Source: Auanema rhodensis (lineage: Eukaryota > Animalia > Nematoda). From it: a stretch of 64,000 nt of DNA. Each line of letters opens with the position of its first letter. The first letter of the stretch is position 1. A program made the translations under genes and the position numbers. The stretch spans positions 11,036,001-11,100,000 of the forward strand of contig OZ059899.1 of NCBI GenBank assembly GCA_964057225.1. The letters run 5' to 3'. Below, piece after piece: positions 15,183-64,000 of this stretch. A model generated the notes under the pieces. That model made no database searches and was not told the origin of the DNA. It was given only the letters and a program-made list of their open reading frames with translations.

Positions 15183-15563
15183 TGTCACATCTGCAAGCAC
15201 ATGGTAAACATGTGCGCGCTATTCAAATAGCGGGAGCCTGAACAATCCCCGCCCACAACATGGGACACACATGGCACTCTTGCTTCTGGCCTAACCCAGA
15301 TAGGTTGTCTTATAGCCATGTGAGTCTCATCTCTATATCATCTATATATATACTCTATTTAATACTTTATCATATCTCTTTATATTCTTTCTTAATGTAA
15401 TTCTTATATTGTATTTTCTTGTTATCTGATAATGAATCCTTTTCTCTTTGAGTATTTGTCTTAATAAGGAAATCGGAGCGTTCGGGTCTGCCTACCTAAG
15501 GAACAAGGTAGAAGTACATATATCTTCCGACCATGAAAAGACGGGAAGAAACAATATGTAACG
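15183..15563 (+). repeat. 5' LTR (381 bp)
   Basis: TGTCACAT...ATGTAACG; direct repeat of 17499-17879. Confidence 0.95.
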
Positions 15564-15576
15564 TGGAGGTTCCACC
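15564..15576 (+). promoter_or_regulatory. Primer binding site, tRNA-Gln
   Basis: TGGAGGTTCCACC is complementary to GGTGGAACCT-CCA, the 3' end of metazoan tRNA-Gln. Confidence 0.8.
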
Positions 15577-17498
15577 TTGCTTACTCTACTGTTAATTTAT
15601 TGACAGCAAGTTTACGAGACTTTTGGACTTAATTACCCAACAGTGAGGAGTAACCGAGCCGTGCACCATGATTTCCCCAAAAATTATTTTGGCTACCACT
15701 TCTCCTCCGCTCAACGAAAACTGGGAGGTGTCTGAGACGTTTGGGGAAACTATCAGACAATAGTTTTGACGAGCGTTACCTTTTTGTTATGCACGCGCGT
15801 GCTATTTTGATTCATTACTTTATGATGTGAATGTCCAGTGTGGCAACAGAGCTCACTTTTTAGCTGAGTTGTTTGGAAGCTGGAGGCTGTTGGGATAATT
15901 TTATTTACGATTTTTTGATTTTGATTCACATCCAAGGGTTCATCAGGGTTCTACTCCTGTTAACTCTTTTCTTATTAGTTCAGAGATAATAAGAATATTT
16001 AAATTCCTACCCACCCAAGTCCACTCTACGTCTGCCAACGTTTCCTTTTTCCTATATTATTGACAGATTACTGAATTTGAATTCCTATATCAATCTTAAA
16101 TTACCTTCTAAATCTTTTGAAATTAAATTAAAAATTATCTTATTTAAGATTTATTTTGAAATTCTTTCTACAAATCTTAATAAACTTTATAAAATTGAAC
16201 TTAATATACGAGATGAGACATTTTTGTTTACTTTAAGCTTACTCACATTCAAATAGTTGGCCCACGCGTACCAGCTGTTCGGCATGTGTAGTCAATAACA
16301 GCTGTTAAAATTCAAAAGTTTTCAAACAGGCTTAAGGCACCATCTGTGATTCCTAATTTGTCTCTAAGCTGACATTAGTGATTATAATATTCAAATATCA
16401 CGACAGACGGTCAATGGTTGTTTACCATAAGCGCTAACATCTGGTGTCGTGACACATGGCTGGAGGCGGAGCTTGAAGCTTCAACGATCCTCCTTCATCA
16501 GACGCCATTGTCACAAACGTTTTTACTGGAGTCTAGTTGCTTCCAGTACGCGCTCTTATATTCATCTAACTGTATTCACCAGCCACCATGTCGGACTCGG
16601 ACATCAGCGAGGACAACAAAGATTAGGAACAAGGATCACCAGAGCCATACCTTTTGTATGTCACACAACAACAAAGAAGAATGAACAACGGTTAATGACT
16701 TAGTTATGATAAAAGTGAATTCTACACGAAACAAACTAACACCTTCATTCGAAGGGCCTTATTTAGTTACAGCAGTTCAAAGATCTTTCGTCGTGGTTCA
16801 AACAGATAAAGGAAAAAGCAGAAGAGTACACAAGGACTTCGTCAAACCTTACCAACGGACAACATCTATTCCGGTTATCACAATTTCTTGAAGGTAGTTT
16901 TTTTTTAACAAAATCAAATTGTTGAAATTTTTCTTATTTTATTTTGTGCCATTTCTAATTGTAACACTTCTTTGTTGTTGATTGATTTTCTCTGAGAAGT
17001 CTGCTATTGTTTTACAAGGTTTTGTTTTATTACTCCAACTCTCATTGAGTAGATTTTTTTTTCAACATTCTCTTGTGAATCATGCTATTTTTTATGCTTA
17101 ATCATTACTTGTATTCACCTTATGGACATTAGTCATACGGGTTAAACGAGTTTTCATTTTTTTGTACAAAACGAGCTCGACCTATTCTCAGGGTAACACC
17201 GTACCTGTACAACTCAAGAAAATGAACGACTATATCACAGTCGAATGGTTTAGAAGCAAAGCTCTCGTTTGCAAGCATTTCACTACTCAAGTGAATGAAA
17301 TAGAATCTACTCGATACTACATTTCGAATTCAACAAACTTGAAGAGACAATAGCTAAACTTTCAAATCGTATTGTATACATTTTTTTTTTTTATCCACTA
17401 CACCATGATTTTTTTTTTCCAACATCCAACTATCTTAAAAAGTGAATTAATTTATTTTGTTTTTGAACGAGGACGTTCAACTTTTTAAGGTGGGGGGA

Positions 17499-17879
17499 TG
17501 TCACATCTGCAAGCACATGGTAAACATGTGCGCGCTATTCAAATAGCGGGAGCCTGAACAATCCCCGCCCACAACATGGGACACACATGGCACTCTTGCT
17601 TCTGGCCTAACCCAGATAGGTTGTCTTATAGCCATGTGAGTCTCATCTCTATATCATCTATATATATACTCTATTTAATACTTTATCATATCTCTTTATA
17701 TTCTTTCTTAATGTAATTCTTATATTGTATTTTCTTGTTATCTGATAATGAATCCTTTTCTCTTTGAGTATTTGTCTTAATAAGGAAATCGGAGCGTTCG
17801 GGTCTGCCTACCTAAGGAACAAGGTAGAAGTACATATATCTTCCGACCATGAAAAGACGGGAAGAAACAATATGTAACG
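17499..17879 (+). repeat. 3' LTR (381 bp)
   Basis: Preceded by polypurine tract AAGGTGGGGGGA. Confidence 0.95.
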
Positions 17880-19644: not shown

Positions 19645-19976
19645 TGTGGCGTTATACCGCAAGTGTATAGTATGGTTGGAAGTAAAACACAAAGCGAATA
19701 TGTAGAAAAAGGTTTATTGATGAATTAACAAGACAAGCACGGAATAGAATCACTGACTGCGAACGTGGAAAAATGTAAGACTGTCCTCCGTTGTTGGGCG
19801 GTCTTCTGAAATAAACTGTTACTTATGCCACATGTTAACACATATGTTATGCATATGTGTTTTGATCTAGTTACAAAGGAAGGAGATAAAGAGAGAGAGA
19901 GAGAGAGAGAGAGAGGTATATATATATAGAGAGAGATAGAGATAACAAAAACAAAACCTACTCGCTTATCGCGACA
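19645..19976 (-). mobile_element. Solo LTR of a second LTR family (copy 1 of 5)
   Basis: TGT...ACA termini with imperfect inverted repeat (TGTGGCG/CGCGACA), 5-bp TSD TCCGA; TATA run then AATAAA on the minus strand; (GA)n tract. Confidence 0.85.
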
Positions 19977-25729: not shown

Positions 25730-25972
25730 TGTGGCGTTATACCGCAAGTGTATAGTATGGTTGGAAGTAAAACACAAAGCGAATATGTAGAAAAAGGTTT
25801 ATTGATGAATTAACAAGACAAGCACGGAATAGAATCACTGACTGCGAACGTGGAAAAATGTAAGACTGTCCTCCGTTGTTGGGCGGTCTTCTGAAATAAA
25901 CTGTTACTTATGCCACATGTTAACACATATGTTATGCATATGTGTTTTGATCTAGTTACAAAGGAAGGAGAT

Positions 25973-26024
<52 letters not shown>

Positions 26025-26085
26025 GTATATATATATAGAGAGAGATAGAGATAACAAAAACAAAACCTACTCGCTTATCGCGACA
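25730..26085 (-). mobile_element. Solo LTR, second family (copy 2 of 5, expanded GA tract)
   Basis: Same sequence, site and TCCGA TSD as 19645-19976. Confidence 0.85.
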
Positions 26086-28501: not shown

Positions 28502-28744
28502 TGTGGCGTTATACCGCAAGTGTATAGTATGGTTGGAAGTAAAACACAAAGCGAATATGTAGAAAAAGGTTTATTGATGAATTAACAAGACAAGCACGGA
28601 ATAGAATCACTGACTGCGAACGTGGAAAAATGTAAGACTGTCCTCCGTTGTTGGGCGGTCTTCTGAAATAAACTGTTACTTATGCCACATGTTAACACAT
28701 ATGTTATGCATATGTGTTTTGATCTAGTTACAAAGGAAGGAGAT

Positions 28745-28796
<52 letters not shown>

Positions 28797-28853
28797 ATAT
28801 ATATAGAGAGAGATAGAGATAACAAAAACAAAACCTACTCGCTTATCGCGACA
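28502..28853 (-). mobile_element. Solo LTR, second family (copy 3 of 5, expanded GA tract)
   Basis: Same sequence, site and TCCGA TSD. Confidence 0.85.
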
Positions 28854-30095: not shown

Positions 30096-30476
30096 TGTCA
30101 CATCTGCAAGCACATGGTAAACATGTGCGCGCTATTCAAATAGCGGGAGCCTGAACAAGCCCCGCCTACAACATGGGACACACATGGCACTCTTGCTTCT
30201 GGCCTAACCCAGATAGGTTGTCTTATAGTCATGTGAGTCTCATCTCTATATCATCTATATATATACTCTATTTAATACTTTATCATATCTCTTTATATTC
30301 TTTCTTAATGTAATTCTTATATTGTATTTTCTTGTTATCTGATAATGAATCCTTTTCTCTTTGAGTATTTGTCTTAATAAGGAAATCGGAGCGTTCGGGT
30401 CTGCCTACCTAAGGAACAAGGTAGAAGTACATATATCTTCCGACCATGAAAAGACGGGAAGAAACAATATGTAACG
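30096..30476 (+). repeat. 5' LTR (381 bp)
   Basis: Direct repeat of 39636-40016 with 7 mismatches. Confidence 0.95.
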
Positions 30477-30489
30477 TGGAGGTTCCACC
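30477..30489 (+). promoter_or_regulatory. Primer binding site, tRNA-Gln
   Basis: TGGAGGTTCCACC immediately after the LTR. Confidence 0.8.
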
Positions 30490-31500
30490 TTGCTTACTCT
30501 ACTGTTAATTTATTGACAGCAAGTTTACGAGACTTTTGGACTTAATTACCCAACAGTGAGGAGTAACCGAGCCGTGCACCATGATTTCCCCAAAAATTAT
30601 TTTGGCTACCACTTCTCCTCCGCTCAACGAAAACTGGGAGGTGTCTGAGACGTTTGGGGAAACTATCAGACAATAGTTTTGACGAGCGTTACCTTTTTTT
30701 TATGCACGCGCGTGCTATTTTGATTCATTACTTTATGATGTGAATGTCCAGTGTGGCAACAGAGCTCACTTTTTAGCTGAGTTGTTTGGAAGCTGGAGGC
30801 TGTTGGGATAATTTTATTTACGATTTTTTGATTTTGATTCACATCCAAGGGTTCATCAGGGTTCTACTCCTGTTAACTCTTTTCTTATTAGTTCAGAGAT
30901 AATAAGAATATTTAAATTCCTACCCACCCAAGTCCACTCTACGTCTGCCAACGTTTCCTTTTTCCTATATTATTGACAGATTACTGAATTTAAATTCCTA
31001 TATCAATCTTAAATTACCTTCTAAATCTTTTGAAATTAAATTAAAAATTATCTTAATTAAGATTTATTTTGAAATTCTTTCTACAAATCTTAATAAACTT
31101 TATAAAATTGAACTTAATATACGAGATGAGACATTTTTGTTTACTTTAAGCTTACTCACATTCAAATAGTTGGCTCACGCGTACCAGCTGTTCGGCATGT
31201 GTAGTCAATAACAGCTGTTAAAATTCAAAAGTTTTCAAACAGGCTTAAGGCACCATCTGTGATTCCTTATTTGTCTCTAAGCTGACATAAGTGATTATAA
31301 TATTCAAATATCACGACAGACGGTCAATGGTTGTTTACCATAAGCGCTAACATCTGGTGTCGTGACACATGGCTGGAGGCGGAGCTTGAAGCTTCAACGA
31401 TCCTCCTTCATCAGACGCCATTGTCACAAACGTTTTTACTGGAGTCTAGTTGCTTCCAGTACGCGCTCTTATATTCATCTAACTGTATTCACCAGCCACC

Positions 31501-32520
31501 CTGTCGGACTCGGACATCAGCGAGGAAAACAAAGATCAGGAACAAGGATCACCAGAGGTACGCCAAGTTTTTGAATTTAATTCTAAAAACTTAAATACTC
31601 CATCCACCTACCTCTCTCCTTTTGAATTTTTGAGAGAAGAAGGTGATTCCTCTTCTTCTTCTCATTCTTCTTCTCTAACAATTAGAACGAGAAGTAAAAG
31701 CAGAAAGGCCATCACTGAGGAAACACCTCGGGCACCTACTACAGTACGAAATAGATCACCAAGTCGGTGGGCCGCTGCTATAACTAAAGCTTTTGAAAGA
31801 AAAATGACTCCTACCTCTCCATCTCCTAATTCTAATGTTGCTCCACCCTCTAGAAATATGGCAACTATTTTAAATTGCCATCTCTGTCCCAGGTATGACG
31901 GCTCTCGTAGCTTTCGTTCTTTTGTTGAATCTTTAAATAGATTTTTTAATGTTATGAATCTAAGCTTACCTGAGAGACTATTAATTTTGCCTCTTCTTTT
32001 GGAATCAAATGAAACAGCTCTCTCCTTGTATAATAGTATTCCTAGTGGCATAAGAACTAATGGCCCATGGATTGTTTTGATGGATCAGCTCACTGAGCTT
32101 TTAGCGCCTAAAACAGATAAAAATTTCACCATAGCGCTTATTCATCGAGTACAACAAGGAGATAAATCTGTTCTTGATTTTAGTATGGAATTAGAGAGAA
32201 TGGCAAGCACCATAATGTCACCAATGGATCCCGAGCGGGAACCAATGTTGAAAACGGCATTTTTAAATGGTTTAAAAGAGGAACTGGGTATTGCGGTTTT
32301 AACTAAAAACCCCGCCACTTATGAACAAGCTAAGAAATTAGCTAGGTTTGAAGAAGGCGTTCGGAATAGCTTCATGAAAAGAAATGAAGACACCAGCACC
32401 TTGAAGGAGCTCATAAATGCTTTACAACATAAATTAAGCTTTAGTGAAGAAAGAGAAAGAAGTAGGAATAATAATAATAATAAAAATTATAAAAATAATA
32501 AAAATAATAAAAAAAAATAA
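31501..32520 (+). CDS. gag: Gag (capsid domain); continues after a +1 shift into the N/R-rich region 32520-32776
   Basis: Retrotransposon CA motifs PRYDGS..F..F, W..LMDQL, MHR-like QQGDKSVLDF; frame is open from 31501, where this copy has GCCACC-CTG and the sister copy GCCACC-ATG (16588). Confidence 0.85.
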   Translation: MSDSDISEENKDQEQGSPEVRQVFEFNSKNLNTPSTYLSPFEFLREEGDSSSSSHSSSLTIRTRSKSRKAITEETPRAPTTVRNRSPSRWAAAITKAFERKMTPTSPSPNSNVAPPSRNMATILNCHLCPRYDGSRSFRSFVESLNRFFNVMNLSLPERLLILPLLLESNETALSLYNSIPSGIRTNGPWIVLMDQLTELLAPKTDKNFTIALIHRVQQGDKSVLDFSMELERMASTIMSPMDPEREPMLKTAFLNGLKEELGIAVLTKNPATYEQAKKLARFEEGVRNSFMKRNEDTSTLKELINALQHKLSFSEERERSRNNNNNKNYKNNKNNKKK

Positions 32521-33445
32521 TAACTGGACTCAGCACAATAATGGCTCTAATGATTATGAGCGAGAGAGAGAGCGACCTTCTGCCGTACGTTATAAGAATA
32601 ATAACTCGCAGAACGGGAATATGAATAGGCGTCCTAACCCGGGAAACCGCCCATTTGCCAATGGCAGAAATGCCAATAGCTCGTCTTGGAACCCTAGGCC
32701 TAGTTCCCCAAGAAGACAAAGACCATCAGCCAATGGGAATGGTAACTCAAGGGTATACAGCGTAGCGACCCCATTCATGCCACCGGTCACGTTGTGCCTG
32801 ACTTTATTGGCACTCTCATGCCTTCCCTTTGGGTCGGCAAAATATCAGATTTGCGCTCAATCTGAAGGGGGTATATTAGTAACACCTCCTGTGGTCACAG
32901 GCTGCCATAAGGCAGAAATTGAAAAGGCTCACAGTGTTGAGGTAGAAATATATCTACCAAAGGCTGAGATAGAGTCATGGGAAGCATGGAAATGCTATGT
33001 GAAAAAGTATAAAAGCTGTGTGAGAGATTTCATGTTTTTGAGAGATCGTAACACCACATTCTCTCATATTGAAACAGTAGATAAGAAAGATTGTGTTCGA
33101 GCACATAGAAATCGTATGTGGAATGATAAAATCATGAATGCCCAACAGCATTCAGTTTTTGAAACACCATTAAACGAGCATAATCCAACTCGCTCTTGGT
33201 CCACTGAAGAATGTGTAGAAATTGAACAATTTGTATTGAAGCGAGGGATAATAACTAGATTGAAAGAAGATCACATTGTATCAGACTTATTTATAAATAC
33301 TGATAATTGTAAAGGAAATGAAGGGTTTTGTGCAACTGGTGAAGGTGCAGTTATCTGGCAACCACCTATCCCATCAGTTGTCTGTCACTATCAAAAACTT
33401 GGCCCCTTCTCCGCCATTACCTCAAAAACATCGCTCTTTCAGTGA
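32444..33445 (+). CDS. Gag C-terminal Asn/Arg-rich region + internal signal sequence + N-terminal part of envelope glycoprotein (frameshifted segment)
   Basis: NRRPNPGNRP basic low-complexity tract, hydrophobic TLCLTLLALSCLPFGSA, then a Cys-rich ectodomain with N-glycosylation sequon. Confidence 0.8.
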   Translation: MKKEKEVGIIIIIKIIKIIKIIKKNNNWTQHNNGSNDYERERERPSAVRYKNNNSQNGNMNRRPNPGNRPFANGRNANSSSWNPRPSSPRRQRPSANGNGNSRVYSVATPFMPPVTLCLTLLALSCLPFGSAKYQICAQSEGGILVTPPVVTGCHKAEIEKAHSVEVEIYLPKAEIESWEAWKCYVKKYKSCVRDFMFLRDRNTTFSHIETVDKKDCVRAHRNRMWNDKIMNAQQHSVFETPLNEHNPTRSWSTEECVEIEQFVLKRGIITRLKEDHIVSDLFINTDNCKGNEGFCATGEGAVIWQPPIPSVVCHYQKLGPFSAITSKTSLFQ

Positions 33446-35439
33446 TGATTATCTTTTTGTTAATGCGAAATCCCAACCATATGCGTTTCCATTTCTAAGA
33501 CCTACTTTCATTTTTGGATCTGCATCTATCACTAAGTTTTACGCAAAATATATGAGATATGCAGCTACATCATCTTATGAGAGTTTGCTCCAATTCGCGA
33601 TAGATAATCCACTGTTCATTGACACAATTGTTAGTTTAGGATTGACAAAAGATCACATAACTAACTGGGCAAAGTCTAATAATTTCAAAGATCCCAATCT
33701 TTTGATTTTACAATGTATGGGTATAGAGGAAATTAAACTGGCTACTAGACAGGTGATTAATAGCATGAAATTGGATGATCTTATCACTCAAGTAGCTCGT
33801 CGTATAGAAGTTCCTCGGTTAAAAAGATCGTTGATGAAATCTACAACATCCATAGAAGACTTCTTTCGAGGAATGGCTCACGCAGTAGTATATCAAGCCA
33901 CAATTCTTGATGGTACACAAACAGTTCCATCAATCGAACAGTTGGCCAGAGCCTTATATCCATCTATATTAGCACGCAGTGGAAATATGAATCAATCTGA
34001 AATTATTGCAACTGCTCAAGGCATGTTATTCATGATCCAACAACAATCGGGAAAAGAACAAATATCTCGTGACATGCAAGTCAGTCGACAACAAAAAGCT
34101 GATGCTACTGTTAGAAACAACCAAGAGCAAGATTTAGCAATTATATCCAAGCTGCCTGACTATCACAACCTTTATACAAAGAATAGTACAGCATATTATG
34201 GATTTCCTCCACAGTCCATCGAATACCCACAGGAAAATCCTAAATTCAATAAAACAGAAGTTTTAGAATTCATAAGTTGGGTTAAAACTCAAATCACAAC
34301 TGATAAAAATATGGTACAGCATACTACTGTAACCCCAATAACTGCCACCAAAACTACAATTCGTAGTTTAACAACTCCTACCCCTAATGCGTACGAGAGA
34401 GGTCGAGAGTTGTATGTAGCAGAAGTATATGACAATGTTCTCCACAAATCAGAGCATAAAACTAAAACGATAATAGATAATAAGTTGAATTATGGGTTTG
34501 AGAAAGCGCGTCTCTCCATAATTGACGAATTTCATCAACAGTTTCATACCATCTGTAAATCTCAAATGGAAACTGTAAAAAGCTGGCAAGCTATATTACG
34601 TATACATCCTACAATAGGAGTAAGAGCTATGCTTCAGCGGGATGATATCGTTGCCCGATTTGTTGGAAGAAATGTTTTAAAAATAACAACTTGTCAGGAA
34701 ATAGAACCACATTTCATTTATCGTAATCATTCTTACAATGATAAATGTTATGCAGAGACCCCTGTTTTAACACACGATAAACAATTATTCTTTGCTCCTA
34801 TCGATAGCTACGATTTGAGCACTGAAGGACATGAGATCAATTGTGAACACAAAGAGACAGAGATTTGGTATGAAAATGGAACATGGAGAGATTATAAAGG
34901 TGACACACATAAAGTAGATAGTATTCATTCAGAAAAACATGATCATTATGCTGAATTGAGTAAACTTCGATTCACAGGGCGGAATTTGTTTGAAAATTCG
35001 ACTGAAAAATCCTTAGCCCTATCTATTGGATTAACTTATGGTTATAGTTTATCTACTTCACCTCACCATGATCTTCTCCGCGTAATTTCTCGTTCACGTG
35101 ATTGGCCTCAAATTTCCTCTTTCATCTTGAAAGGAAGTAAACTTATAAGAGATGCCAGGAAAATTGTTTTCTCCAATTGGGATCTGTTCATTGACTTTTG
35201 TATAGGTTCAATTGAACGAACACTCATTACCATCGGTTGTATAACTCTGATATTATGTCTAATGATAGCATTATATTTCACTATAAAATGTTATCTCTCC
35301 CCTACTTCTATGTTAAAAATAAACCATATCATGTTGAGCCCAACAGCTCCACCACTTGAGGGAGATGAGATTCATGAAACAGTTAGTGATGAATTGATGC
35401 GGAGCTATTTTCCCACCATCATAACTTACATTCCTTTAG
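32777..35439 (+). CDS. env: Envelope glycoprotein, class III / herpesvirus gB-like (one frameshift near 33440)
   Basis: Signal-like peptide; RLKR furin site (33816-33827); Thr-rich tract; gB-like block IC..Q......ILRIHPTIGVRAMLQRDDIVARFVG..LKITTC...KCYAETPV; TM segment about 35220-35290; short tail with PTAP. Confidence 0.75.
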
Positions 35440-38400
35440 CCATACCTTTTGTATGTCACACAACAACAAAGAAAAATGGACACTTGTTACCGTTTGTTCA
35501 TATTGACATTGAAGGTAGAGGACTGTTAGCATTATGGGATTCTGGAGCTACTGTCTCATATATTCCGTTCTCCACATTGGCATATATTGGAAGACAATAT
35601 TTTACAAAATATTCTAAATCTGCATCCACTGCAAATGGATCAGAGTTTCGCTTTGTGGGAAAATGCAAGTTAGATGTGGGTATAGCAGGTTACCAAGTGG
35701 AACACGAATTTTTAATATCTGAAGACAATGACTGTCCAGGACAAATGTTACTTGGTACTGATTTTATGCGTACGTTGGAAGAAAGAGAGATATTTACTAC
35801 ATTAAAACTATGTAAAGGAAAGTTGATTGTTGGTAATATGGAAACACCCTTAGTAAAACCTGGTTGTTTTGCATATAAAACCACAACTAAAACAGTAAAT
35901 ATCATAAGTTTGTCCACAGTAACAGTTCCACCACATAGTACCTCCCACATATCTTTGCAAACAGGACCAGAATTAGATTTTGATCAATATGCTCTTTTAA
36001 AATCTAGCACAGGTCCTATCTCAATTCCAGATGCCGCCATAGGACCTTTTCCTATTACTATGGTAGTATCAAACAATTCTTCAAAGCCAATTAAAATTAA
36101 TAAAAATGACCACATTGGTTCAGGACTTATAGCATCTAAAGAAATTATGAACGATTATGTTCCACCTGAAGCTGATTGGGAAGATAAGTTACCAACTTTT
36201 CCTCAGCATCTTTTGGATGATTTGAACTTCAATTCTTGCACTCTGTCTCATAAAATGAAGAAAAATCTGATCACAATCATTAAGGAAAACCAAACGGCAT
36301 TTTTCAACCATGATCATAATATTGGTCTCTTTTGCGGACCAGTTGAACATGCCATTCCTATAAGATCTGATATGGATTTTCCAAAAAGTAGATCTTACAG
36401 AGTACCATTGGGTAAGCAAGAAGAAGTAGAACGGCAAGTGAAAGAAATGTTGTCGCAAGGTATAATCGAAAATTCGACGGCTACTTTCACTAGTCCGGTT
36501 GTTCTTGTGAAAAAGAAAGATAATTCTTTCCGGTTCGTTACTGACTTTAGAGCATTGAATAGTGTTACTAAGAAACAAACATACAGCATCCCACACATTC
36601 CTGATATCATAGACTTAGCGGCTGGAGCTCAGTTCTTTTCGAATTTTGATCTCATTTCTGGTTTCTTCCAAATACCGTTGAAACGCTCAGATAGATACTT
36701 AACTGCTTTTACCACTCCATCAGGTACCTATCAGTATTGCCGAATGCCTATGGGATTGTGTGGAGCGCCACACACTTTTCAATCCGCAGTACGATATTTG
36801 CAATCTCTTGTTAGATGCAAACTGTTTGTATATCTAGATGATTTGCTAATAATTTCGAACTCAGCTGAAGAACATTTAAGAGATATACAAGAAGTGCTGA
36901 AAAAGGTCACTGAACTAGGGTTAAAAATTAAGTTATCTAAATGTTGCTTTGCAGCCACTGAAGTAAAGTTTTTGGGTTTTGTAATAGGTAGAAATGGTGT
37001 TAAACCAGATCCTGCTAAGATAGAGGCTGTTTCCGAATTTCCAAATCCAAGTACAGTTACGGCTGTTAGATCCTTTCTAGGTATGACTAACTATTTTCGA
37101 CGGTTTATTCAAAATTATGCCGAAATAGCGGAGCCATTGTATAAGTTAACACATAAGGATACTCCTTTTGAGTGGAAATCGGAACATGCAGACGCATTTA
37201 AAACTTTAAAAACATTACTGTGTACTGCCCCTGTACTGAAACCTCCTAAAGCAGACCAACCTTTTGTTATAGAAAGTGATGGCAGTATGATCGCTGTGGG
37301 AGCAGTTTTATTGCAATCAGCAGAGAAAAATTCTCCATTACACCCGATTGCGTTCGCTAGTAGAAAGTTGACTCCAGCGGAACGGAAATATCCTCCTATT
37401 GAAGTTGAAGCACTCGGTTTAGTCTTTGCTCTTCAACAATTCCGTACCTATGTATTAGGAGTACCTACCACAGTTATCACAGATCACCGACCATTAACCA
37501 GTTTAATGTCGCGTAAAGATCTCATAGGTAGATTAGCCAAGTATCAACTAATGATACAAGATTTCAACATAAAGATTGAATATCGTCCTGGCAAATTAAA
37601 CAGTGTCTGTGATGCTCTCTCCAGGTATATAGGAAACGAAGCAAATGACAGTCGTCCTACTAAACCAAAGGACAAAGTAAAACCTGTTGATGCTTTTATT
37701 GCTCATATTACAACTATTTCTTCTATTGACCAACTAAATTGTGAAGAAATACGGAAAGTTCAAGCTGGAGTTCCCTGGATTCGCGAAGCACTTTCTCAAA
37801 TTAATAATGATAACTGTCCGGCTAATATATCAGACCGGTATGAAGAACGAGAAGGCATATTACATGCAAAACAAGCGAAAAATTATTTAAAACCATCTAT
37901 TATTTTGCCTCGAAACGACAAAATAACTGATGTTGTCATCAAATTTTTTCACGAAGATTCCAAAATTGGTGCACACCTAGGTATAAATAAAACTACTGAT
38001 GCGATTCGACGACGATTCTTTTGGACTAATATGGTTCCACAAATAACTGAATTTATTAATCGTTGTACAAAATGTGCAAGTAGGAAATCTAACCCACACC
38101 AATCGTATATTCAACCTATGGGAAGATTTGTTATACCCGAAAAGCCATTTGATCGTATTCATGTAGATATACTAGGTCCTTTACCTCGCACTAATGATGG
38201 ACATCGATACATCTTGAGTATTCAAGATGCTTTTAGTAAATGGGGAACAACTTGCCCATTAATAACACAAACGGCTACTGAAATCACAAAAGCGTTTGTA
38301 ATTAGATTTGTTTTCATATATGGACCACCAATGAGTATGATAACCGATAATGGTAGTAGCTTTTTGTCATCTGAATTTCAAGCTATGTGTAAACAATTTG

Positions 38401-39017
38401 GAATTAAACACACTACTACGCTACCATATCATAAAAATGCTAATGGACAAGTTGAGAGACTTCATAGAACTTTGGAAGAAGCTCTCTCTTCATTCGTGAA
38501 TGAACAACAAACTAACTGGGATATACACCTACCCAAAGTTATGTTTGCGATCAATACGTTACCAAACTCATCAACATCTATTAGTCCATATGTTGTATTA
38601 TTTGGTCGGGATGCAAGACTTCCTATTGACCATCAATTGCCTGGGAATAATCTTCAAACTGAAGAACCAGCCAATCCTACAGAAGATTTTGTCAATAGAT
38701 CGCTAATACAAAATGAAAGCACATCTAATATAGTAAAAGATAGAATTGAAACATGCACAAAGAAGAATGAACAACGGTACAATACACGAAATAGAACACA
38801 AAATAAAGAAATTCAGGTTAATGACTTAGTTATGATAAAAGTGAATTCTACTCGAAACAAACTAACACCTTCATTCGAAGGGCCTTATTTAGTTACAGCA
38901 GTTCAAAGATCTTTCGTCGTGGTTCAAACAGATAAAGGAAAAAGCAGAAGAGTACACAAGGACTTCGTCAAACCTTACCAACGAACAACATCTATTCCGG
39001 TTATCACAATTTCTTGA
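33318..39017 (+). CDS. pol: Env(C-terminal)-Pol polyprotein: gB-like ectodomain, TM, aspartic protease, RT, RNase H, integrase
   Basis: LWDSGA (35538), RFVTDFRALN, FDLISGFFQIP, MPMGL, YLDD (36831), ESDGS/EALG/TDHRPL RNase H, H-H-C-C zinc finger, D-D-E (HVDILGP, TDNGS, GQVER), FEGPY. Confidence 0.97.
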   Translation: MKGFVQLVKVQLSGNHLSHQLSVTIKNLAPSPPLPQKHRSFSDDYLFVNAKSQPYAFPFLRPTFIFGSASITKFYAKYMRYAATSSYESLLQFAIDNPLFIDTIVSLGLTKDHITNWAKSNNFKDPNLLILQCMGIEEIKLATRQVINSMKLDDLITQVARRIEVPRLKRSLMKSTTSIEDFFRGMAHAVVYQATILDGTQTVPSIEQLARALYPSILARSGNMNQSEIIATAQGMLFMIQQQSGKEQISRDMQVSRQQKADATVRNNQEQDLAIISKLPDYHNLYTKNSTAYYGFPPQSIEYPQENPKFNKTEVLEFISWVKTQITTDKNMVQHTTVTPITATKTTIRSLTTPTPNAYERGRELYVAEVYDNVLHKSEHKTKTIIDNKLNYGFEKARLSIIDEFHQQFHTICKSQMETVKSWQAILRIHPTIGVRAMLQRDDIVARFVGRNVLKITTCQEIEPHFIYRNHSYNDKCYAETPVLTHDKQLFFAPIDSYDLSTEGHEINCEHKETEIWYENGTWRDYKGDTHKVDSIHSEKHDHYAELSKLRFTGRNLFENSTEKSLALSIGLTYGYSLSTSPHHDLLRVISRSRDWPQISSFILKGSKLIRDARKIVFSNWDLFIDFCIGSIERTLITIGCITLILCLMIALYFTIKCYLSPTSMLKINHIMLSPTAPPLEGDEIHETVSDELMRSYFPTIITYIPLAIPFVCHTTTKKNGHLLPFVHIDIEGRGLLALWDSGATVSYIPFSTLAYIGRQYFTKYSKSASTANGSEFRFVGKCKLDVGIAGYQVEHEFLISEDNDCPGQMLLGTDFMRTLEEREIFTTLKLCKGKLIVGNMETPLVKPGCFAYKTTTKTVNIISLSTVTVPPHSTSHISLQTGPELDFDQYALLKSSTGPISIPDAAIGPFPITMVVSNNSSKPIKINKNDHIGSGLIASKEIMNDYVPPEADWEDKLPTFPQHLLDDLNFNSCTLSHKMKKNLITIIKENQTAFFNHDHNIGLFCGPVEHAIPIRSDMDFPKSRSYRVPLGKQEEVERQVKEMLSQGIIENSTATFTSPVVLVKKKDNSFRFVTDFRALNSVTKKQTYSIPHIPDIIDLAAGAQFFSNFDLISGFFQIPLKRSDRYLTAFTTPSGTYQYCRMPMGLCGAPHTFQSAVRYLQSLVRCKLFVYLDDLLIISNSAEEHLRDIQEVLKKVTELGLKIKLSKCCFAATEVKFLGFVIGRNGVKPDPAKIEAVSEFPNPSTVTAVRSFLGMTNYFRRFIQNYAEIAEPLYKLTHKDTPFEWKSEHADAFKTLKTLLCTAPVLKPPKADQPFVIESDGSMIAVGAVLLQSAEKNSPLHPIAFASRKLTPAERKYPPIEVEALGLVFALQQFRTYVLGVPTTVITDHRPLTSLMSRKDLIGRLAKYQLMIQDFNIKIEYRPGKLNSVCDALSRYIGNEANDSRPTKPKDKVKPVDAFIAHITTISSIDQLNCEEIRKVQAGVPWIREALSQINNDNCPANISDRYEEREGILHAKQAKNYLKPSIILPRNDKITDVVIKFFHEDSKIGAHLGINKTTDAIRRRFFWTNMVPQITEFINRCTKCASRKSNPHQSYIQPMGRFVIPEKPFDRIHVDILGPLPRTNDGHRYILSIQDAFSKWGTTCPLITQTATEITKAFVIRFVFIYGPPMSMITDNGSSFLSSEFQAMCKQFGIKHTTTLPYHKNANGQVERLHRTLEEALSSFVNEQQTNWDIHLPKVMFAINTLPNSSTSISPYVVLFGRDARLPIDHQLPGNNLQTEEPANPTEDFVNRSLIQNESTSNIVKDRIETCTKKNEQRYNTRNRTQNKEIQVNDLVMIKVNSTRNKLTPSFEGPYLVTAVQRSFVVVQTDKGKSRRVHKDFVKPYQRTTSIPVITIS

Positions 39018-39623
39018 AGGTAGTTTTTTTTTTAACAAAATCAAATTGTTGAAATTTTTTTTATTATTTTATTTTGTGCCATTTCTGATTGTACCACTTC
39101 TTTGTTGTTGATTGATTTTCTCTGAGAAGTCTGCTATTGTTTTACAAAAGTTTGTTTTATTACTCCAACTCTCATTGAGTAGATTTTTTTTTCAACATTC
39201 TCTTGTGAATTTTGCTATTTTTTTATGCTTAATCATTACTTGTATTCACCTTATGGACATTAGTCATACGGGTTAAACGAGTTTTCATTTTTTTGTACAG
39301 AACGGGCTCGACCTATTCTCAGGGTAACACCGTACCTGTACAACTCGAGAAAATGAACGACTATATCACAGTCGAATGGTTTAGAAGCAAAGCTCTCGTT
39401 TGCAAGCATTTCACTACTCAAGTGAATGGAATAGAATCTATTCGATACTACATTTTGAATTCAACAAACTTGAAGAGACAATAGCTAAACTTTCAAATCG
39501 TATTGTATACATTATTTTTTATCGACTACACCATGATTTTTTTTGTTATCTTTTTCCAACATCCAACTATCTTAAAAAGTGAATTAATTTATTTTGTTTT
39601 TGAACGAGGACGTTCAACTTTTT

Positions 39624-39635
39624 AAGGTGGGGGGA
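39624..39635 (+). promoter_or_regulatory. Polypurine tract
   Basis: AAGGTGGGGGGA directly before the 3' LTR. Confidence 0.85.
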
Positions 39636-40016
39636 TGTCACATCTGCAAGCACATGGTAAACATGTGCGCGCTATTCAAATAGCGGGAGCCTGAACAAGC
39701 CCCGCCTACAACATGGGACACACATGGCACTCTTGCTTCTGGCCTAACCCAGATAGGTTGTCTTATAGTCATGTGAGTCTCATCTCTATATCATCTATAT
39801 ATATACTCTATTTAATACTTTATTAGATCTCTTTATAATCTTTCTTAATGTAATTCTTATATTGTATTTTCTTGTTATCTGATAATGAATCCTTTTCTCT
39901 TTAAGTATTTGTCTTAATAAGGAAATCGGGGCGTTCGGGTCTGCCTACCTAAGGAACAAGGTAGAAGTACATATATCTTCCGACTATGAAAAGACGGGAA
40001 GAAACCATATGTAACG
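39636..40016 (+). repeat. 3' LTR (381 bp)
   Basis: TGTCACAT...ATGTAACG followed by TSD CCAC. Confidence 0.95.
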
Positions 40017-54080: not shown

Positions 54081-54410
54081 TGTGGCGTTATACCGCAAGT
54101 GTATAGTATGGTTGGAAGTAAAACACAAAGCGAATATGTAGAAAAAGGTTTATTGATGAATTAACAAGACAAGCACGGAATAGAATCACTGACTGCGAAC
54201 GTGGAAAAATGTAAGACTGTCCTCCGTTGTTGGGCGGTCTTCTGAAATAAACTGTTACTTATGCCACATGTTAACACATATGTTATGCATATGTGTTTTG
54301 ATCTAGTTACAAAGGAAGGAGATAAAGAGAGAGAGAGAGAGAGAGAGAGGTATATATATATAGAGAGAGATAGAGATAACAAAAACAAAACCTACTCGCT
54401 TATCGCGACA
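54081..54410 (-). mobile_element. Solo LTR, second family (copy 4 of 5)
   Basis: Same sequence, site and TCCGA TSD. Confidence 0.85.
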
Positions 54411-55082: not shown

Positions 55083-55412
55083 TGTGGCGTTATACCGCAA
55101 GTGTATAGTATGGTTGGAAGTAAAACACAAAGCGAATATGTAGAAAAAGGTTTATTGATGAATTAACAAGACAAGCACGGAATAGAATCACTGACTGCGA
55201 ACGTGGAAAAATGTAAGACTGTCCTCCGTTGTTGGGCGGTCTTCTGAAATAAACTGTTACTTATGCCACATGTTAACACATATGTTATGCATATGTGTTT
55301 TGATCTAGTTACAAAGGAAGGAGATAAAGAGAGAGAGAGAGAGAGAGAGAGGTATATATATATAGAGAGAGATAGAGATAACAAAAACAAAACCTACTCG
55401 CTTATCGCGACA
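55083..55412 (-). mobile_element. Solo LTR, second family (copy 5 of 5)
   Basis: Part of a 1002-bp tandem duplication with copy 4. Confidence 0.85.
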
Positions 55413-56014: not shown

Positions 56015-56506
56015 TACGAAAGTACGAAATAACAAAGCGCTGATTATAGGAAACGTGAATGAATGCAGATATTCTCAATTCCGATTCATTAACTAGATCG
56101 TGGTCAGCATTTTACAACATTGATAAAATAGAAACTGAGAAAAAAACATCAACAAATGACACTATTAACTTGGTTTTTTGAACAGCTTTTTTATATTTCT
56201 TTTTTCACTATGAGAGAACTTATATTTATTGCTTTTTCAAAATTTTCCATTTTTAACATAATACATCTTGACTATCACACATTGAGAACAACAGTTGGCA
56301 ATGTTGGTTGTCACGTCATATTTCATGCAGTTAGATTTTCAGACACATTAATACCTTTGACCATTCTTCTTATGAGTTTTGTAACGATAGATCGTAATAG
56401 GAAATGAATTGGTATAATATGAAAAAATACAAGACATAGTCAACATTGATTTCCCCAAATAGTATCAGTAGAGAGCCGTGCAAAATTTACTAACCACGCC
56501 CCCAAA

Positions 56507-56620
56507 CAGCTGTCAAAAACATACTTTTGGGGGGCGTCAGCTGCTAAAAACATACTTTTGGGGCGCGTCAGCTGTCAAAAACATATTTTTGAGCGTCAGC
56601 TGTTAAAATCATATTTTGGG
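56507..56620 (+). repeat. Subterminal ~30-bp repeats in the presumed TIR (about 4 copies)
   Basis: CAGCTG(T/C)(C/T)AAAAACATACTTTTGGGG(G/C)GCGT-like units. Confidence 0.8.
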
Positions 56621-57085
56621 ATCATGGTTCATGGATTCTCCTTTTTTAAATTTAAAAATCATGATTTAAAGCATGATTTTTTTTTAAATCAAATTTAAAT
56701 ATGCTTTTAAATGTATGTATATATTTTTAATTATTTTTAAATATATTAAGTAAAAATAAAAATCTTAATTTTAAATATTTAAATTATATTTAAATTTTAT
56801 ATATATAAATTATATTTAAACTTTAAATATTTAAATTATATTTAAATTTTATATATATAAATTTTATTTAAACTTTAAATTTTATATATAAATTATATTT
56901 AAATATTTAAATATTTAAATATGTAAATTTGTTTTTTAAATTTTATTTATTTATTAAATTTATTAATAATGTTTGTTTACTTGATTTGTTTATTTTTTAT
57001 TGTATTGTGTTTGTATTGTTTTTATTTTAAAGAACAGTAAAATTTTTGCATGTATATCGTTTTGTTCACCGTACTTGTTATGGGT

Positions 57086-57294
57086 AATTCAATGGAACAC
57101 ATATCGAAGGTTAATTCGATAAGAACGATATGAAATACAAAATTCAATGGAACACATATCGAAGGTTAATTCGATAAGAACGATATGAAATACAAAATTC
57201 AATGGAACACATATCGAAGGTTAATTCGATAAGAACGATATGAAATACCAAAATTTAATGGAACACATATCGAAAGTTAATTCGATAAGAACGA
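57086..57294 (+). repeat. 55-bp tandem repeat, about 3.8 copies
   Basis: AATTCAATGGAACACATATCGAAGGTTAATTCGATAAGAACGATATGAAATACAA at 57086, 57141, 57196 and about 57252. Confidence 0.9.
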
Positions 57295-57690
57295 CATTAA
57301 ATTATTAATTTTTGAAATTACAAATTGTTATTAATTATATTTATTCTAACAAGTAAAGGTTTCAAATTATAATAAAAGATTATTTTTAAACTTCATTTTA
57401 CTAATATAACAATACAATAACTAAATAGAGCACACATTGAAGGTAAATACAATAAGATTAACAAACAGTTGCGCTGACCTCAATGAAACGCATAAAGTTA
57501 ATTTAATAAGAACTAATAACAAAAATTAATCCGACGGGGACAATAAAAACAGATGTATTCAATAAGCTTATTTATTTTAAAGTTTATCGCAACTGCTAGT
57601 TTTGACAGCTGTACCCAAATCCATGTTACATAACAAATTACAATGCCAACAGCAATGTGTAGACTGATGTATTCATTATATCAAGGTACA

Positions 57691-60600
57691 ATGGCTGCTA
57701 ATAGGTTGTGTCTTTTTGATTATTTGTTTGTAAACTTTTTCTTTTTTTAGTTATAAACGTTTATGTGAAGAGCTAGGATTTGATTATGAAGAAATCAATC
57801 AGCTCAGGTAATTTAACAATATTTTGAATCTTTATATATATTTTGTTTTTTAGTAAACGTATAAAGTTTACCGAAGCTGGTGGGATCGAGCTCTGTGAGC
57901 CCACATCACCCACTTTTAACAGTGGGCCCTCATCATCAAGGGTTATTGAAGTAATAACCTTGGATGACAGTGATGAGTAAGCGATATTAAAAATTATAAC
58001 AATTAGTTTTTTCTTTTTAAGCGAATGGGATCCTGCTACCCCATCAACCAGTGGAGGACAAGTCGGATATGGAGCGGCATTCAACGATGTCTGTAAAATA
58101 GAGGTGCGATCTTTTATTTACATATCATTTCATAATATATCTTTTGAAACATGAAATTTTCTCTTGCTCCAATTGCATATTTTGAAAACATTTTGAAATT
58201 TATTTCTCTTTTTCAATTGCTCTCTCTCTCATCTTTACATTTCATCTCAATCTATATCTTTTTTCAAACAAATTGCAAGTATTTTGAAATTTACATATTC
58301 ATTCTTTTGAACAACATTCATTTTAAAATCTTTACATTTCATCTCACTATCTATCTATCTTTCCTCATCTATCTTTCTTTCAACCAATTTTGAATTCTTA
58401 CAAATTATAAATATTTCAAACATTTTGAACTAGTAAAATAATAAAACACAATCTTGACCTTTTCATTTATTTTTTAACATTAACAAATGTTTATAAAAGT
58501 TTTTTCAAAGTTGAAAAAAAAAAAAAAACTTTATATTTAAAAATCAAATGCCATTTATTTTTAAACATTAATAAAAATAATTTAAAGAAAAGTAAATTTA
58601 TAAAAAGTTATAAACAAAAATTATTTATATTTAAACTAAAAGCGTATAACCATTATAAAAAGTGTGTATTATAGTGGTCACACCGACGCATAAAACGAAC
58701 TGGTCGGTTCACCAACGTGGTCGTTAGATCGCTCACGTTCCCACATTTGGAAGCCATTGATGAGCCAATGCATGTTGTCATGCCGCGGCTATTTAATGAG
58801 TTTCTTGATCGGTGCCTTGCTGAAAGTGGTGTGCCAGATAAACAAAAAGCACTATTTTGTTTATCAATAGAGCACCCATCCTTTGAAAAGGGATCCATAT
58901 TTATGGATTTCCGTAGAAGGGAGCATTTGGATGGCGTTGCCATCATGAATGCCATCAGCAAGGTACAGCAATCAAAGCGAGAGGCTGTAATTAGCCAGGC
59001 AATGAACATTGAAATGTATGTGTTTGATGAGAGACCAGTGCAGCCAAGCCTGATGCCTGGTGAAGGTAGAGTTGGTTTCTATTTTGATGCCGAACTCAAG
59101 ATACCTGGCACAATTGAGAACACTGATACACATTGCCTGGCTAGAGCAGCAGTTGTGGGAATGTGGAGAGCCGATGAAGAGGCAGCAGAAGATGTTGTTG
59201 AGAAGCGGAGGATTCAAAATCTTCGTCGCAACTACATCTTGTTGCCAAATCAACCACATCATATCAATTTATTGAATAGGTGTGGTATTTCTGTACATTT
59301 ACCAAATTATAATTTGAACCATTTAAATATTATTGCAAGTTGTAATACAGACTATAAGTTTGTAGTATACGCTAGGCCACCTGGACAGCGTATGTACGCT
59401 ATTCAGCGTATCTTTAATGAAACGGCTAGCAAAGTGGTAACACTAGGCTACCGAAATAATCATTATGACTGTATTACAACTTGTAGTAGATCACAGATTT
59501 TTGATGGTATTATATGCCAACACTGTAAATTATCTTACAAAACAGTGTTGCATAGATGTAAAGCCAAGTGTAAGAAATGCCACACCTTAAAATGTAATTC
59601 GATGGAAAATGTGGTTGAGAGTAGCATAAGATGTGATAGTTGTAGAGTTTTGTTCAAAACTCGTCAATGCTTTGACAGGCATATTAGAAAAACATGTCGA
59701 ATGTTTAAGGTAATTTAAAAAATATATATAAAATTTTACAAGACTAAATTCAGACATGTGAAAACTGTGATCATTATCACAGAGTACGTGCTGATAGACC
59801 GCACAATTGCAATGAGAAATTTTGCAAAAAGTGTGGGCAAACAAAGCCTGAAGATCATTCTTGTTGTTGGGTACCACCTAACGACAAGAAGAAGGATCAG
59901 TTAAAAAAGAGGCAAGAAAAATACAAGGTTTGTATTTTACATCTTTACAAGTGTAATGCTTACTTGTTTAAGATTATATTCTATGACTTTGAAACGGTTG
60001 TGTTAAAAAACGGTACAAATGTTCATGAATATGCAGATGAACAATGGCCCAATATGGTTGTGTATAATAAATTTTGTGAAAGTTGTATAGATGCCAACTC
60101 ATGTGAAAAATGCACAACCAAGGAGGGCCATTTTGGGTACCAACAAGGTGATAGTGAATGGTCTGTAACAGATCGTTTCCTTGATTGGTTACTCAACTCT
60201 GTTGAGAATGATAATGCAATTTTGATTGCGCATAATGGTTCACGCTTTGACATACATTTCTTGGTGTCTAGGCTGATAAACCGTGGTATATATCCTGATC
60301 CAATTTTAAATGGGACCAAGATTATAAGCATGGTTGTCAAGCCTTTAAGAGGTCAAAAATTTAACCATTTATATTTTAAAGATAGTTATTTATTAGTGCC
60401 TTTACCCTTATCAGCGTTACCCAAGGCATTTGGTGTACCTGATATGAGTAAAGGACAGTTTCCTTACCTCTATAATCACCCAATAAATTATGGCAAAGTG
60501 TTGCCATCTTTACCACCAAAACAGTACTATTGTACTGCTAGAATGAAAGCAGAAGACCTAGCTTCATTCGATATTTGGTATGAAGAGCGTAATCAAAGAG

Positions 60601-62900: not shown

Positions 62901-63035
62901 TATATTTGAATTTATAAATTTTTATCTTGTATATATTTGTATTTATAAAATTTTATCATTGTACATGTATATTTTTAAAAATAGTTGTATTAATAAATTT
63001 TATTCTTAAATCTTTTAAAGAATTTATTACATACA

Positions 63036-64000
63036 TTACAAACTGGTATCAATATATGGAGCACGATTGTTGTCAATTGAAAGAATAGAGTCATACTCTG
63101 CATAAACAATTGCATATAAGCCCTCTTGCGGCGTTTGTTGACCAAATTCCAATTTCAAGGCTACATTACCTTGTCGTATAACATCAAATAACTCTGACGA
63201 ATGCACAGTAGGAGAAATATCAAATACAAAAAATGTGAAACCAGCTTTATACATTGCTGGTGTAATACCATTGGATGAATCTGTACGACCAAGTCCCAAA
63301 CCTTCGAGCATGTCAATATATGCTGTGGCATAGGAAGATCGCCATTCTAAATTATAAGGACGGGTAGGTATTACCCTATTGTTGAGCGTCAAGTATATAT
63401 TTTTCAAATCAAACGGTTTAAAGTTGAATGGCGAATGTTTAAAAGTACCATTATAAGCGTGTGCGCCAACAAGACCTACTACGACACGTTTTGGTGTATG
63501 AGACGTGAATAATATATTATTAGGTGAATCCAAGCGGCCTCCTTCTATGAAATAAGAGCGCATTTTCACTGATGTCATGGGGTAGTGTATTCGATCCTTT
63601 GCGAGTTTATCTTCTATAGCCATAGCTAATCCAGCGTTTAGATCAAACTCTTGAATGAGCAAATGTACATCGCTGATATCTACTTTCAAATTTGGAAACT
63701 CCTCCTTTAATGTAGTATCCTTGTTTTCATTATTCCAGCCTAGAGTGTCAATTAAAAAGTTATCACGGTTTGGATATGCAGTTAGCTCCATTTTTGAATA
63801 GTTTACAAACAGTCGCTCTTGATTAAATAGGTCGATACTGACGGGAGCAGCCATCTCACACAATATGCCATTTTTTACAAGCGTTTGACGCGTTCTAAAT
63901 CCAGCACTGGATGCATTATCTATATATCTATCAGCATAATAGCCTGATATGGCAAGTTTGCTCTCTTTAACATCGTTGCTATACATTAAAATATTCTCGA
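63036..64000 (-). CDS. Polinton major capsid protein (double jelly-roll), 5'-truncated by the window edge
   Basis: PKRVVVGLV..AYNG..HSPFNFKPFDL.NIYLTLNNRVIP and GFTFFVFDISP motifs typical of Polinton MCP; frame is open to the window end. Confidence 0.85.
   Translation of the reverse strand, partial: ENILMYSNDVKESKLAISGYYADRYIDNASSAGFRTRQTLVKNGILCEMAAPVSIDLFNQERLFVNYSKMELTAYPNRDNFLIDTLGWNNENKDTTLKEEFPNLKVDISDVHLLIQEFDLNAGLAMAIEDKLAKDRIHYPMTSVKMRSYFIEGGRLDSPNNILFTSHTPKRVVVGLVGAHAYNGTFKHSPFNFKPFDLKNIYLTLNNRVIPTRPYNLEWRSSYATAYIDMLEGLGLGRTDSSNGITPAMYKAGFTFFVFDISPTVHSSELFDVIRQGNVALKLEFGQQTPQEGLYAIVYAEYDSILSIDNNRAPYIDTSL

What the first reader, a model, noticed from the sequence alone, without database searches (positions are those of the whole stretch)
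32742..35439. env appears to sit inside an intron of gag-pol: predicted splice gives in-frame Gag-Pol
Seen: the acceptor TTCCTTTAG|CC at 35439, between the Env tail and the protease, was used in the spliced sister copy. Seen: a donor-like AATG|GTAACT at 32741/32742 lies at the end of Gag, just before the signal sequence, in phase 1, the same phase the acceptor needs for the pol frame. Joining them gives ...SANGN-A-IPFVCHTTTKKNGHLLPFVHIDIEG..LWDSGA and removes signal, ectodomain, TM and tail. Inference: unspliced RNA gives Gag-Env-Pol and genome, spliced RNA gives soluble Gag-Pol. This inverts the retroviral scheme, where env is the spliced product, and would explain how an env could be captured mid-ORF. 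Use of the 32742 donor is not shown by the sequence.
Basis: inference. Interest (0 to 1): 0.88.

Follow-up and report, generated by a model that had tools for sequence, protein, structure and literature searches.

The report
Splice skips gag and env together
A worm-type retrovirus-like jumping gene of a known gag-env-pol layout does have its envelope gene inside an intron, but the splice seen removes the capsid gene too, leaving an enzyme-only RNA that has been copied back into the genome; the proposed capsid-enzyme splice was not seen, and the enzymes likely come mainly from cutting one long membrane-spanning protein.

Summary
The element (30096-40016) is a nematode-type Ty3/gypsy gag-env-pro-pol provirus, a published layout (PMC13524379) that this scan also noted before in flatworm windows. 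The acceptor at 35439 is really used: the exact GT-AG joint stands in the sister copy, in 4 of 4 DNA runs and in 2 of 4 probable RNA runs laid. Its partner is always a donor at 31558, in an AUG-free leader upstream of the likely gag AUG (31804), not 32742. That intron removes gag and env together. The 32742 donor exists and is in phase, but contigs cross it unbroken in 4 of 4 DNA runs, RNA gives no cover there, and 8 of 12 close relatives cannot encode the acceptor at the same codon. Relatives instead keep protease-site-like motifs on both sides of Env and a PTAP/PSAP motif behind its anchor, which points to one cleaved polyprotein. The splice that was seen has the layout of the foamy-virus pol mRNA, and sister copies carry an in-frame AUG at the protease start; its translation is untested and that AUG is not conserved in relatives.

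The parts
30096..30476 (+). 5' LTR (381 nt); 4-nt target duplication; element inserted in a tRNA-Ile gene of a tandem array
   Evidence: 7 differences to the 3' LTR
30477..30488 (+). Primer binding site for tRNA-Gln
   Evidence: identical to the 12-nt PBS listed for two Caenorhabditis gag-env-pol elements in PMC13524379 supplement 1
31372..31803 (+). Leader stretch without AUG in any frame; holds a CUG in strong context at 31501 and the used donor
   Evidence: 0 AUG against 6.5 expected, 3 of 10000 shuffles
31558..35439 (+). Intron that is actually removed (GT..AG, 3882 nt): nearly all of the gag frame and all of env
   Evidence: sister copy; 4 of 4 DNA runs; 2 of 4 probable RNA runs
31804..32776 (+). 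gag (likely AUG at 31804; frame open from 31483; capsid-like part, basic tail without zinc knuckle); frame break in 32454-32527 in this copy
   Evidence: Pfam Retrotrans_gag E 2.6e-4, below the curated cut-off; BLAST to Gag of 5 relatives
32739..32747 (+).
   Evidence: contigs cross it unbroken in 4 of 4 DNA runs
32777..32839 (+). Internal signal sequence, preceded by a protease-site-like VYSV at 32753
   Evidence: hydropathy; signal-like stretch in 28 of 35 relatives anchored on the first Env cysteine
32840..35222 (+). gB-type (class III) Env ectodomain with furin-like RLKR at 33816; broken near 33416 in this copy
   Evidence: Pfam Glycoprotein_B E 7.6e-5, below cut-off; model of the C-terminal part matches herpes gB domain IV, E 3.4e-4
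35223..35285 (+). Env transmembrane anchor
35286..35483 (+). Env-protease linker: protease-site-like INHI (35319), PTAP (35340-35351), conserved hydrophobic motif (35406-35456) that straddles the acceptor
35431..35441 (+). Used splice acceptor (intron ends 35439)
   Evidence: rank 51 of 472 AG sites with the approximate matrix
35484..35486 (+). pol-frame codon at the start of the predicted protease fold, 18 codons before the catalytic Asp; UUG here, AUG in the contigs that cover it in 4 of 4 DNA runs
   Evidence: table 3
35484..39017 (+). pol: protease, RT, RNase H, integrase, continuous with env
   Evidence: Pfam; protease model matches Ddi1/retroviral proteases, E 8e-10
38777..38816 (+). 40-nt GT..AG segment missing from the sister; strong acceptor, weak donor
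   Evidence: missing in run X5, kept in X1, X6, X9, X12, X14
39636..40016 (+). 3' LTR, preceded by a polypurine tract
15183..17879 (+). Non-autonomous sister: identical LTRs, 4-nt target duplication, joint 31557^35440, pol lost at an 8-nt microhomology (35465 to 38757, not GT-AG)

Best explanation
This is a nematode-type gag-env-pro-pol element in which a leader donor (31558) is spliced to the acceptor at 35439, removing gag and env together, while Gag, Env and Pol likely come from one unspliced, membrane-spanning polyprotein that is predicted to be cut by host and element proteases. In that polyprotein Gag would stay in the cytosol, the internal signal would carry Env into the ER, the anchor would bring the tail and Pol back to the cytosol, and the element's protease would cut before the signal and just behind the anchor; no env-skipping Gag-Pol mRNA is needed. 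The spliced RNA keeps LTR, primer site, leader and polypurine tract, so it is packaged and reverse-transcribed; after losing pol by a microhomology jump it became a non-autonomous family. Shown: the joint, the sister, the domain order. Inferred: topology, cleavage, packaging, order of events.
For: Joint 31557^35440 with exact GT..AG in the sister, 4 of 4 DNA runs from 3 studies, 2 of 4 probable RNA runs. Donor lies in a 432-nt AUG-free zone before the likely gag AUG. Contigs cross 32741 unbroken in 4 of 4 DNA runs. All 13 relatives with at least 41% identity over at least 60% of Pol have Env sequence or its anchor before the protease (11 by BLAST; 2 by eye), none Gag. Motif [VI][NH]x[VILM] within 50 residues before the signal in 12 of 28 relatives (shuffle mean 1.8, max 7), in the anchor-protease linker in 27 of 43 (6.8, max 16), and at the RNase H-integrase border in 12 of 29 (3.9, max 10). 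P[TS]AP in 9 of 43 linkers (shuffle mean 0.26, max 3; 1 of 24 env-less controls). Acceptor codon pair incompatible with a phase-1 AG in 8 of 12 close relatives.
Against: No raw RNA reads: all 8 runs are contigs, which drop rare forms, and the RNA label is a guess; one DNA run may be the window's own source. No RNA cover at 32329-33923, so a Gag-Pol splice was not tested in RNA. The 32742 donor is good (rank 8 of 338) and in phase, 2-4% by chance. The protease fold starts after the acceptor, so a spliced Gag-Pol would be workable. The cleavage motif was chosen after looking at the sequences, is recalled as protease-like, and the window's own pre-signal VYSV fits only a relaxed form; relatives are not independent. 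No DNA of relatives was obtained, so acceptors a few codons away cannot be excluded.
Confidence: 0.6

Rival explanations
1. The observed splice is a functional pol mRNA as in foamy viruses: leader donor to an acceptor 44 nt before an AUG at the protease start, giving soluble Pol without Gag or Env.
For: Layout matches. The pol-frame codon at 35484 reads AUG in 4 of 4 DNA runs (in X1 only a minor contig covers it) and marks the start of the predicted protease fold. In X1 a contig with the leader joint seems to run on into the protease (inferred, tables 3 and 5).
Against: Two out-of-frame AUGs precede it (35453; 35476 in strong context) and its own context is weak. Nine AUGs lie in the far leader unless trans-splicing removes them. 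A Met between acceptor and protease occurs in 3 of 12 close and 11 of 36 relatives, as chance gives (33%). The probable RNA contigs with the joint belong to the pol-deleted family. A 1:1 polyprotein leaves no shortage of Pol.
Confidence: 0.2
2. One reading: 32741^35440 splicing gives soluble Gag-Pol, besides or instead of polyprotein cleavage.
For: Donor good and in phase, acceptor proven, protease fold intact after the join.
Against: Joint listed in 0 of 8 runs and absent from the sister, although spliced RNA of this element is readily copied into DNA; an env-less gag-pol copy would be autonomous and should have spread; no close relative fuses Gag to protease.
Confidence: 0.13
3. The splice is the first step of a multiply spliced mRNA for a small accessory protein, like cerv of Cer1: a short exon from 35440 in another frame, closed at a donor at 35515 (75 nt), joined in frame to the integrase tail at 38817.
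For: Acceptor 38816 is strong (rank 5 of 472), phase 0 and apparently used in the sister; AUG 35476 has strong context and its frame is open to 35515. Cer1 cerv has an exon in another frame (PMC10309623 passages).
Against: Joint 35514^38817 not listed; donor 35515 is middling (rank 42 of 338); no ORF after integrase as in Cer1 and no similarity to the Cer1 C-terminal region.
Confidence: 0.1

Closest known systems
Nematode GAG-ENV-POL Ty3/gypsy elements with HSV/gB-type ENV (Chary and Hayashi, PMC13524379; they cite Sacco et al. 2022, J Gen Virol, for nematode elements with flipped env and pol)
   Same: Gene order, gB-type Env between signal and anchor, tRNA-Gln primer site, nematode relatives at 41-54% Pol identity, one reading frame.
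   Different: Main text of PMC13524379 has 0 hits for 'splic', 'polyprotein' and 'frameshift'; Sacco et al. could not be read, so whether it reports splicing is unknown. The gag+env-skipping splice, its retrocopied family and the PTAP linker were not found described.
Foamy virus spliced pol mRNA (PMC7828637, passages)
   Same: Pol-only subgenomic RNA made by a splice to an acceptor just before pol; suboptimal splice site.
   Different: Foamy viruses have no Gag-Pol fusion and depend on this RNA; here pol is continuous with gag and env, env lies inside the intron, and initiation at the protease is unproven.
C. elegans Cer1 and its spliced cerv mRNA (PMC3315495, PMC10309623, passages)
   Same: Nematode Ty3/gypsy element, one long ORF, consensus splice sites that must be skipped to make genomic RNA.
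   Different: Cer1 has no Env and has an ORF after integrase; no protein product is shown for the splice here.
Flavivirus and alphavirus structural polyproteins (recalled, no call)
   Same: Capsid, internal signal, lumenal glycoprotein, anchor, then cytosolic protein in one chain.
   Different: Unrelated sequences; class III fusogen and aspartic protease here. A likeness of strategy only.

Membership tests
Nematode GAG-ENV-POL gB-type Ty3/gypsy elements | Ty3/gypsy pol order PR-RT-RH-IN between LTRs | tested here: met
Nematode GAG-ENV-POL gB-type Ty3/gypsy elements | env between gag and pol | tested here: met
Nematode GAG-ENV-POL gB-type Ty3/gypsy elements | gB-type ectodomain flanked by signal and anchor | tested here: met
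   weak Pfam gB hit, Foldseek to gB domain IV from a partly confident model (pLDDT 61.6), relatives hit PF24664
Nematode GAG-ENV-POL gB-type Ty3/gypsy elements | One continuous reading frame (recalled from Sacco et al., not read) | tested here: inconclusive
   not met in this copy (two breaks); contig offsets in other copies fit one frame; relatives are single 2200-2800 aa proteins
Nematode GAG-ENV-POL gB-type Ty3/gypsy elements | Nematode host and place in a nematode pol clade | tested here: inconclusive
   closest named relatives are all nematode and the primer site matches; no tree built, host not named by any tool
Foamy-virus-type pol mRNA | Splice from a leader donor to an acceptor just before pol | tested here: met
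Foamy-virus-type pol mRNA | Pol initiated from its own AUG on that RNA | tested here: inconclusive
   in-frame AUG in other copies, weak context, two upstream AUGs, not conserved
Foamy-virus-type pol mRNA | No Gag-Pol fusion protein | tested here: not met
   pol is in frame with env and, in relatives, gag
   not listed in 4 DNA runs that cover the site; 4 probable RNA runs have no cover there
   acceptor at the same codon excluded in 8 of 12; donor not testable on proteins; no env-bearing DNA among 82 loci

The most novel reading that the evidence does not exclude
An enveloped Ty3/gypsy element has independently arrived at the foamy-virus strategy: a leader donor skips gag and env and lands just before a protease AUG, so soluble Pol comes from a spliced RNA while the unspliced RNA makes a membrane-spanning Gag-Env-Pol that buds through a PTAP late domain placed behind the Env anchor.
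Probability: 0.2. Interest if true: 0.75.

Novelty: new variant of a known kind. Interest (0 to 1): 0.48.

Why it matters
How gag-env-pol elements express and process one membrane-spanning ORF is not addressed in the main text of the survey read here. This locus gives a mapped splice that skips gag and env, a parasite family born from it, and clade-wide motifs (protease-site-like sequences on both sides of Env, PTAP/PSAP behind the anchor) that make the polyprotein model testable. If the spliced RNA makes Pol, a strategy thought peculiar to foamy viruses has arisen in a retrotransposon.

Tried and rejected
No whole genome is held, so no genome-wide count of copies. No RNA holder is listed on record; I laid 8 of the 15 runs. 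In the 4 probable RNA runs pol is covered more than gag or env; not used, since lack of cover in contigs is no evidence. Contig depths of gag, env and pol are similar in X1, X6, X9 and not in X5; depth is no copy number, not used. DNA of relatives: searches gave 82 loci, none with env. One search (env region, long proteins) found nothing. A Gag AUG at 31501: rejected, full-length copies carry CUG and AUG is seen only in part of the spliced family. The 71-codon open frame before donor 31558 that runs into pol (1.4% in shuffles): set aside because another frame is open for 85 codons there. A -1 slippery site after the acceptor: none in 35440-35530. The 35465-38757 loss as a splice: rejected, ends are not GT-AG at any offset of the 8-nt homology. 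The conserved linker motif as part of the protease fold: not supported, low confidence in the model. Paper search returned only irrelevant papers; searches found no paper on such splicing or on late domains in gypsy elements, but the library lacks most subscription journals, Sacco et al. 2022 included.

Full report
What the element is. The finding lies in an LTR element at 30096-40016 (381-nt LTRs, 7 differences, 4-nt target duplication) inserted in a tRNA-Ile array. Order: gag, internal signal (32777-32839), Env ectodomain, anchor (35223-35285), linker, protease, RT, RNase H, integrase. Env is gB-type: weak Pfam gB hit, and the confident part of a model matches herpes gB domain IV. Named relatives are nematode proteins; many are single 2200-2800 aa chains with fusion protein before protease. 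The primer site equals the tRNA-Gln site of two Caenorhabditis elements in PMC13524379 supplement 1 (I saw 30 of its 36 nematode rows). That paper (abstract, first part of one results section, word-search passages) states that nematode, bryozoan and flatworm elements are GAG-ENV-POL and cites Sacco et al. 2022, which is not held. The layout is therefore known; earlier notes of this scan report it for flatworms. The window copy has two frame breaks, records crossing 32454-32527 (X1, X6) and about 33416 (X1, X5; loose ends in X6, X9) have offsets that fit one frame, so the breaks are peculiar to this copy.

The observation. Scores come from a recalled, approximate nematode matrix: donor 32742 ranks 8 of 338, donor 31558 ranks 5, acceptor 35439 ranks 51 of 472, acceptor 38816 ranks 5.

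Which splice happens. The sister (15183-17879, identical LTRs) joins 31557 to 35440, then loses pol at an 8-nt microhomology, and lacks a 40-nt GT..AG piece at 38777-38816. The 31557^35440 joint is in 4 of 4 DNA runs (3 studies) and 2 of 4 runs guessed to be RNA (1 study); there the contigs belong to the pol-deleted family. No joint from 32741 is listed in any of the 8 runs (of 15 found). In the 4 DNA runs single contigs cross 32741; one joint row at the 32454-32527 repeat was dropped by the tool in X9. The RNA runs have no cover from 32329 to 33923, so they do not test the proposed splice. Contigs drop rare forms.

Where donor 31558 sits. Full-length copies have no AUG from 31372 to 31803 in any frame (3 of 10000 shuffles); the first is 31804, gag frame, AAAAATG. 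An AUG at 31501 occurs only in part of the spliced family. So 31558 is a leader donor upstream of gag, where retroviruses have their major donor (established knowledge), and the intron holds both gag and env. The RNA left is pol-only, the layout of the foamy-virus pol mRNA (PMC7828637 passages). The pol-frame codon at 35484, where the predicted protease fold begins, is AUG in the contigs that cover it in 4 of 4 DNA runs and UUG in this copy. Against function: two out-of-frame AUGs precede it, one strong; its context is weak; Met in that interval is found in 3 of 12 close and 11 of 36 relatives, no more than chance.

Relatives. No DNA was obtained, so tests are on proteins. At the acceptor column 4 of 12 close relatives allow a phase-1 AG and 8 do not; the site lies inside a conserved peptide, and nearby alternatives cannot be excluded. 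Of 13 relatives with at least 41% identity over at least 60% of Pol, none fuses Gag to protease; most are gene models. A protease-site-like motif is enriched before the signal (12 of 28; 35 proteins anchored, 28 with a signal), in the linker (27 of 43) and at the RNase H-integrase border (12 of 29). P[TS]AP is in 9 of 43 linkers (43 of 157 env-bearing proteins had both anchor and protease motif). These motifs were picked after inspection and the proteins are related, so the shuffle figures overstate independence.

Mechanism. Most likely (0.6): unspliced RNA is genome and template of one polyprotein whose signal and anchor put Gag and Pol in the cytosol and Env in the lumen, with cuts by signal peptidase, furin and the element's protease (inferred); the leader-to-pol splice is a side route whose RNA is mobile and founded a non-autonomous family.

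Novelty. Architecture known. I found no description of splicing or late domains in these elements: 'splic' has 0 hits in the main text of PMC13524379 and searches gave nothing relevant; Sacco et al. 2022, that paper's figures and five of its six tables were not seen and may bear on this. Verdict: new variant of a known kind; real splice, different from the one proposed; interest 0.48.

Noticed in passing
window 1-56467: Tandem array of a 667-nt unit, 66 tRNA-Ile(AAT) genes called, with shortened 410-nt units; both retroelement copies sit in it, one inside the tRNA gene, one in the spacer.
   Followed up: partly
window 35340-35351: PTAP behind the Env anchor; P[TS]AP in 9 of 43 relatives' linkers against 0.26 expected. 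Resembles the ESCRT late domain of retroviral Gag (recalled), here placed between Env and protease.
   Followed up: partly
window 35406-35456: Hydrophobic, proline-rich 17-residue motif, strongly conserved in close relatives, outside the protease fold; function unexplained (membrane anchor, ribosome pause or cleavage element).
   Followed up: partly
window 31372-31803: AUG-free leader; gag frame open 107 codons before the first AUG, with CUG in strong context at 31501: possible N-extended Gag.
   Followed up: partly
window 30470-30476, 40010-40016: LTRs begin TG but end CG, not CA, in both copies.
   Followed up: no
window 19646-19976, 25731-26085, 28503-28853, 54082-54410, 55084-55412: Five copies of a 330-355-nt TG...CA insert with a GA microsatellite at the same place in the array unit, probably a solo LTR of another element amplified with the array.
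   Followed up: no
window 56468-64000: Array ends at an element starting AGTAGAGAG with a broken protein-primed DNA polymerase B (Pfam DNA_pol_B_2 at 59748-62293): Maverick/Polinton-like.
   Followed up: no
window 35551-36275: Run X1 holds further deletion joints inside pol (35551 to 35978; 35965 to 36275), suggesting decayed pol-bearing copies.
   Followed up: no
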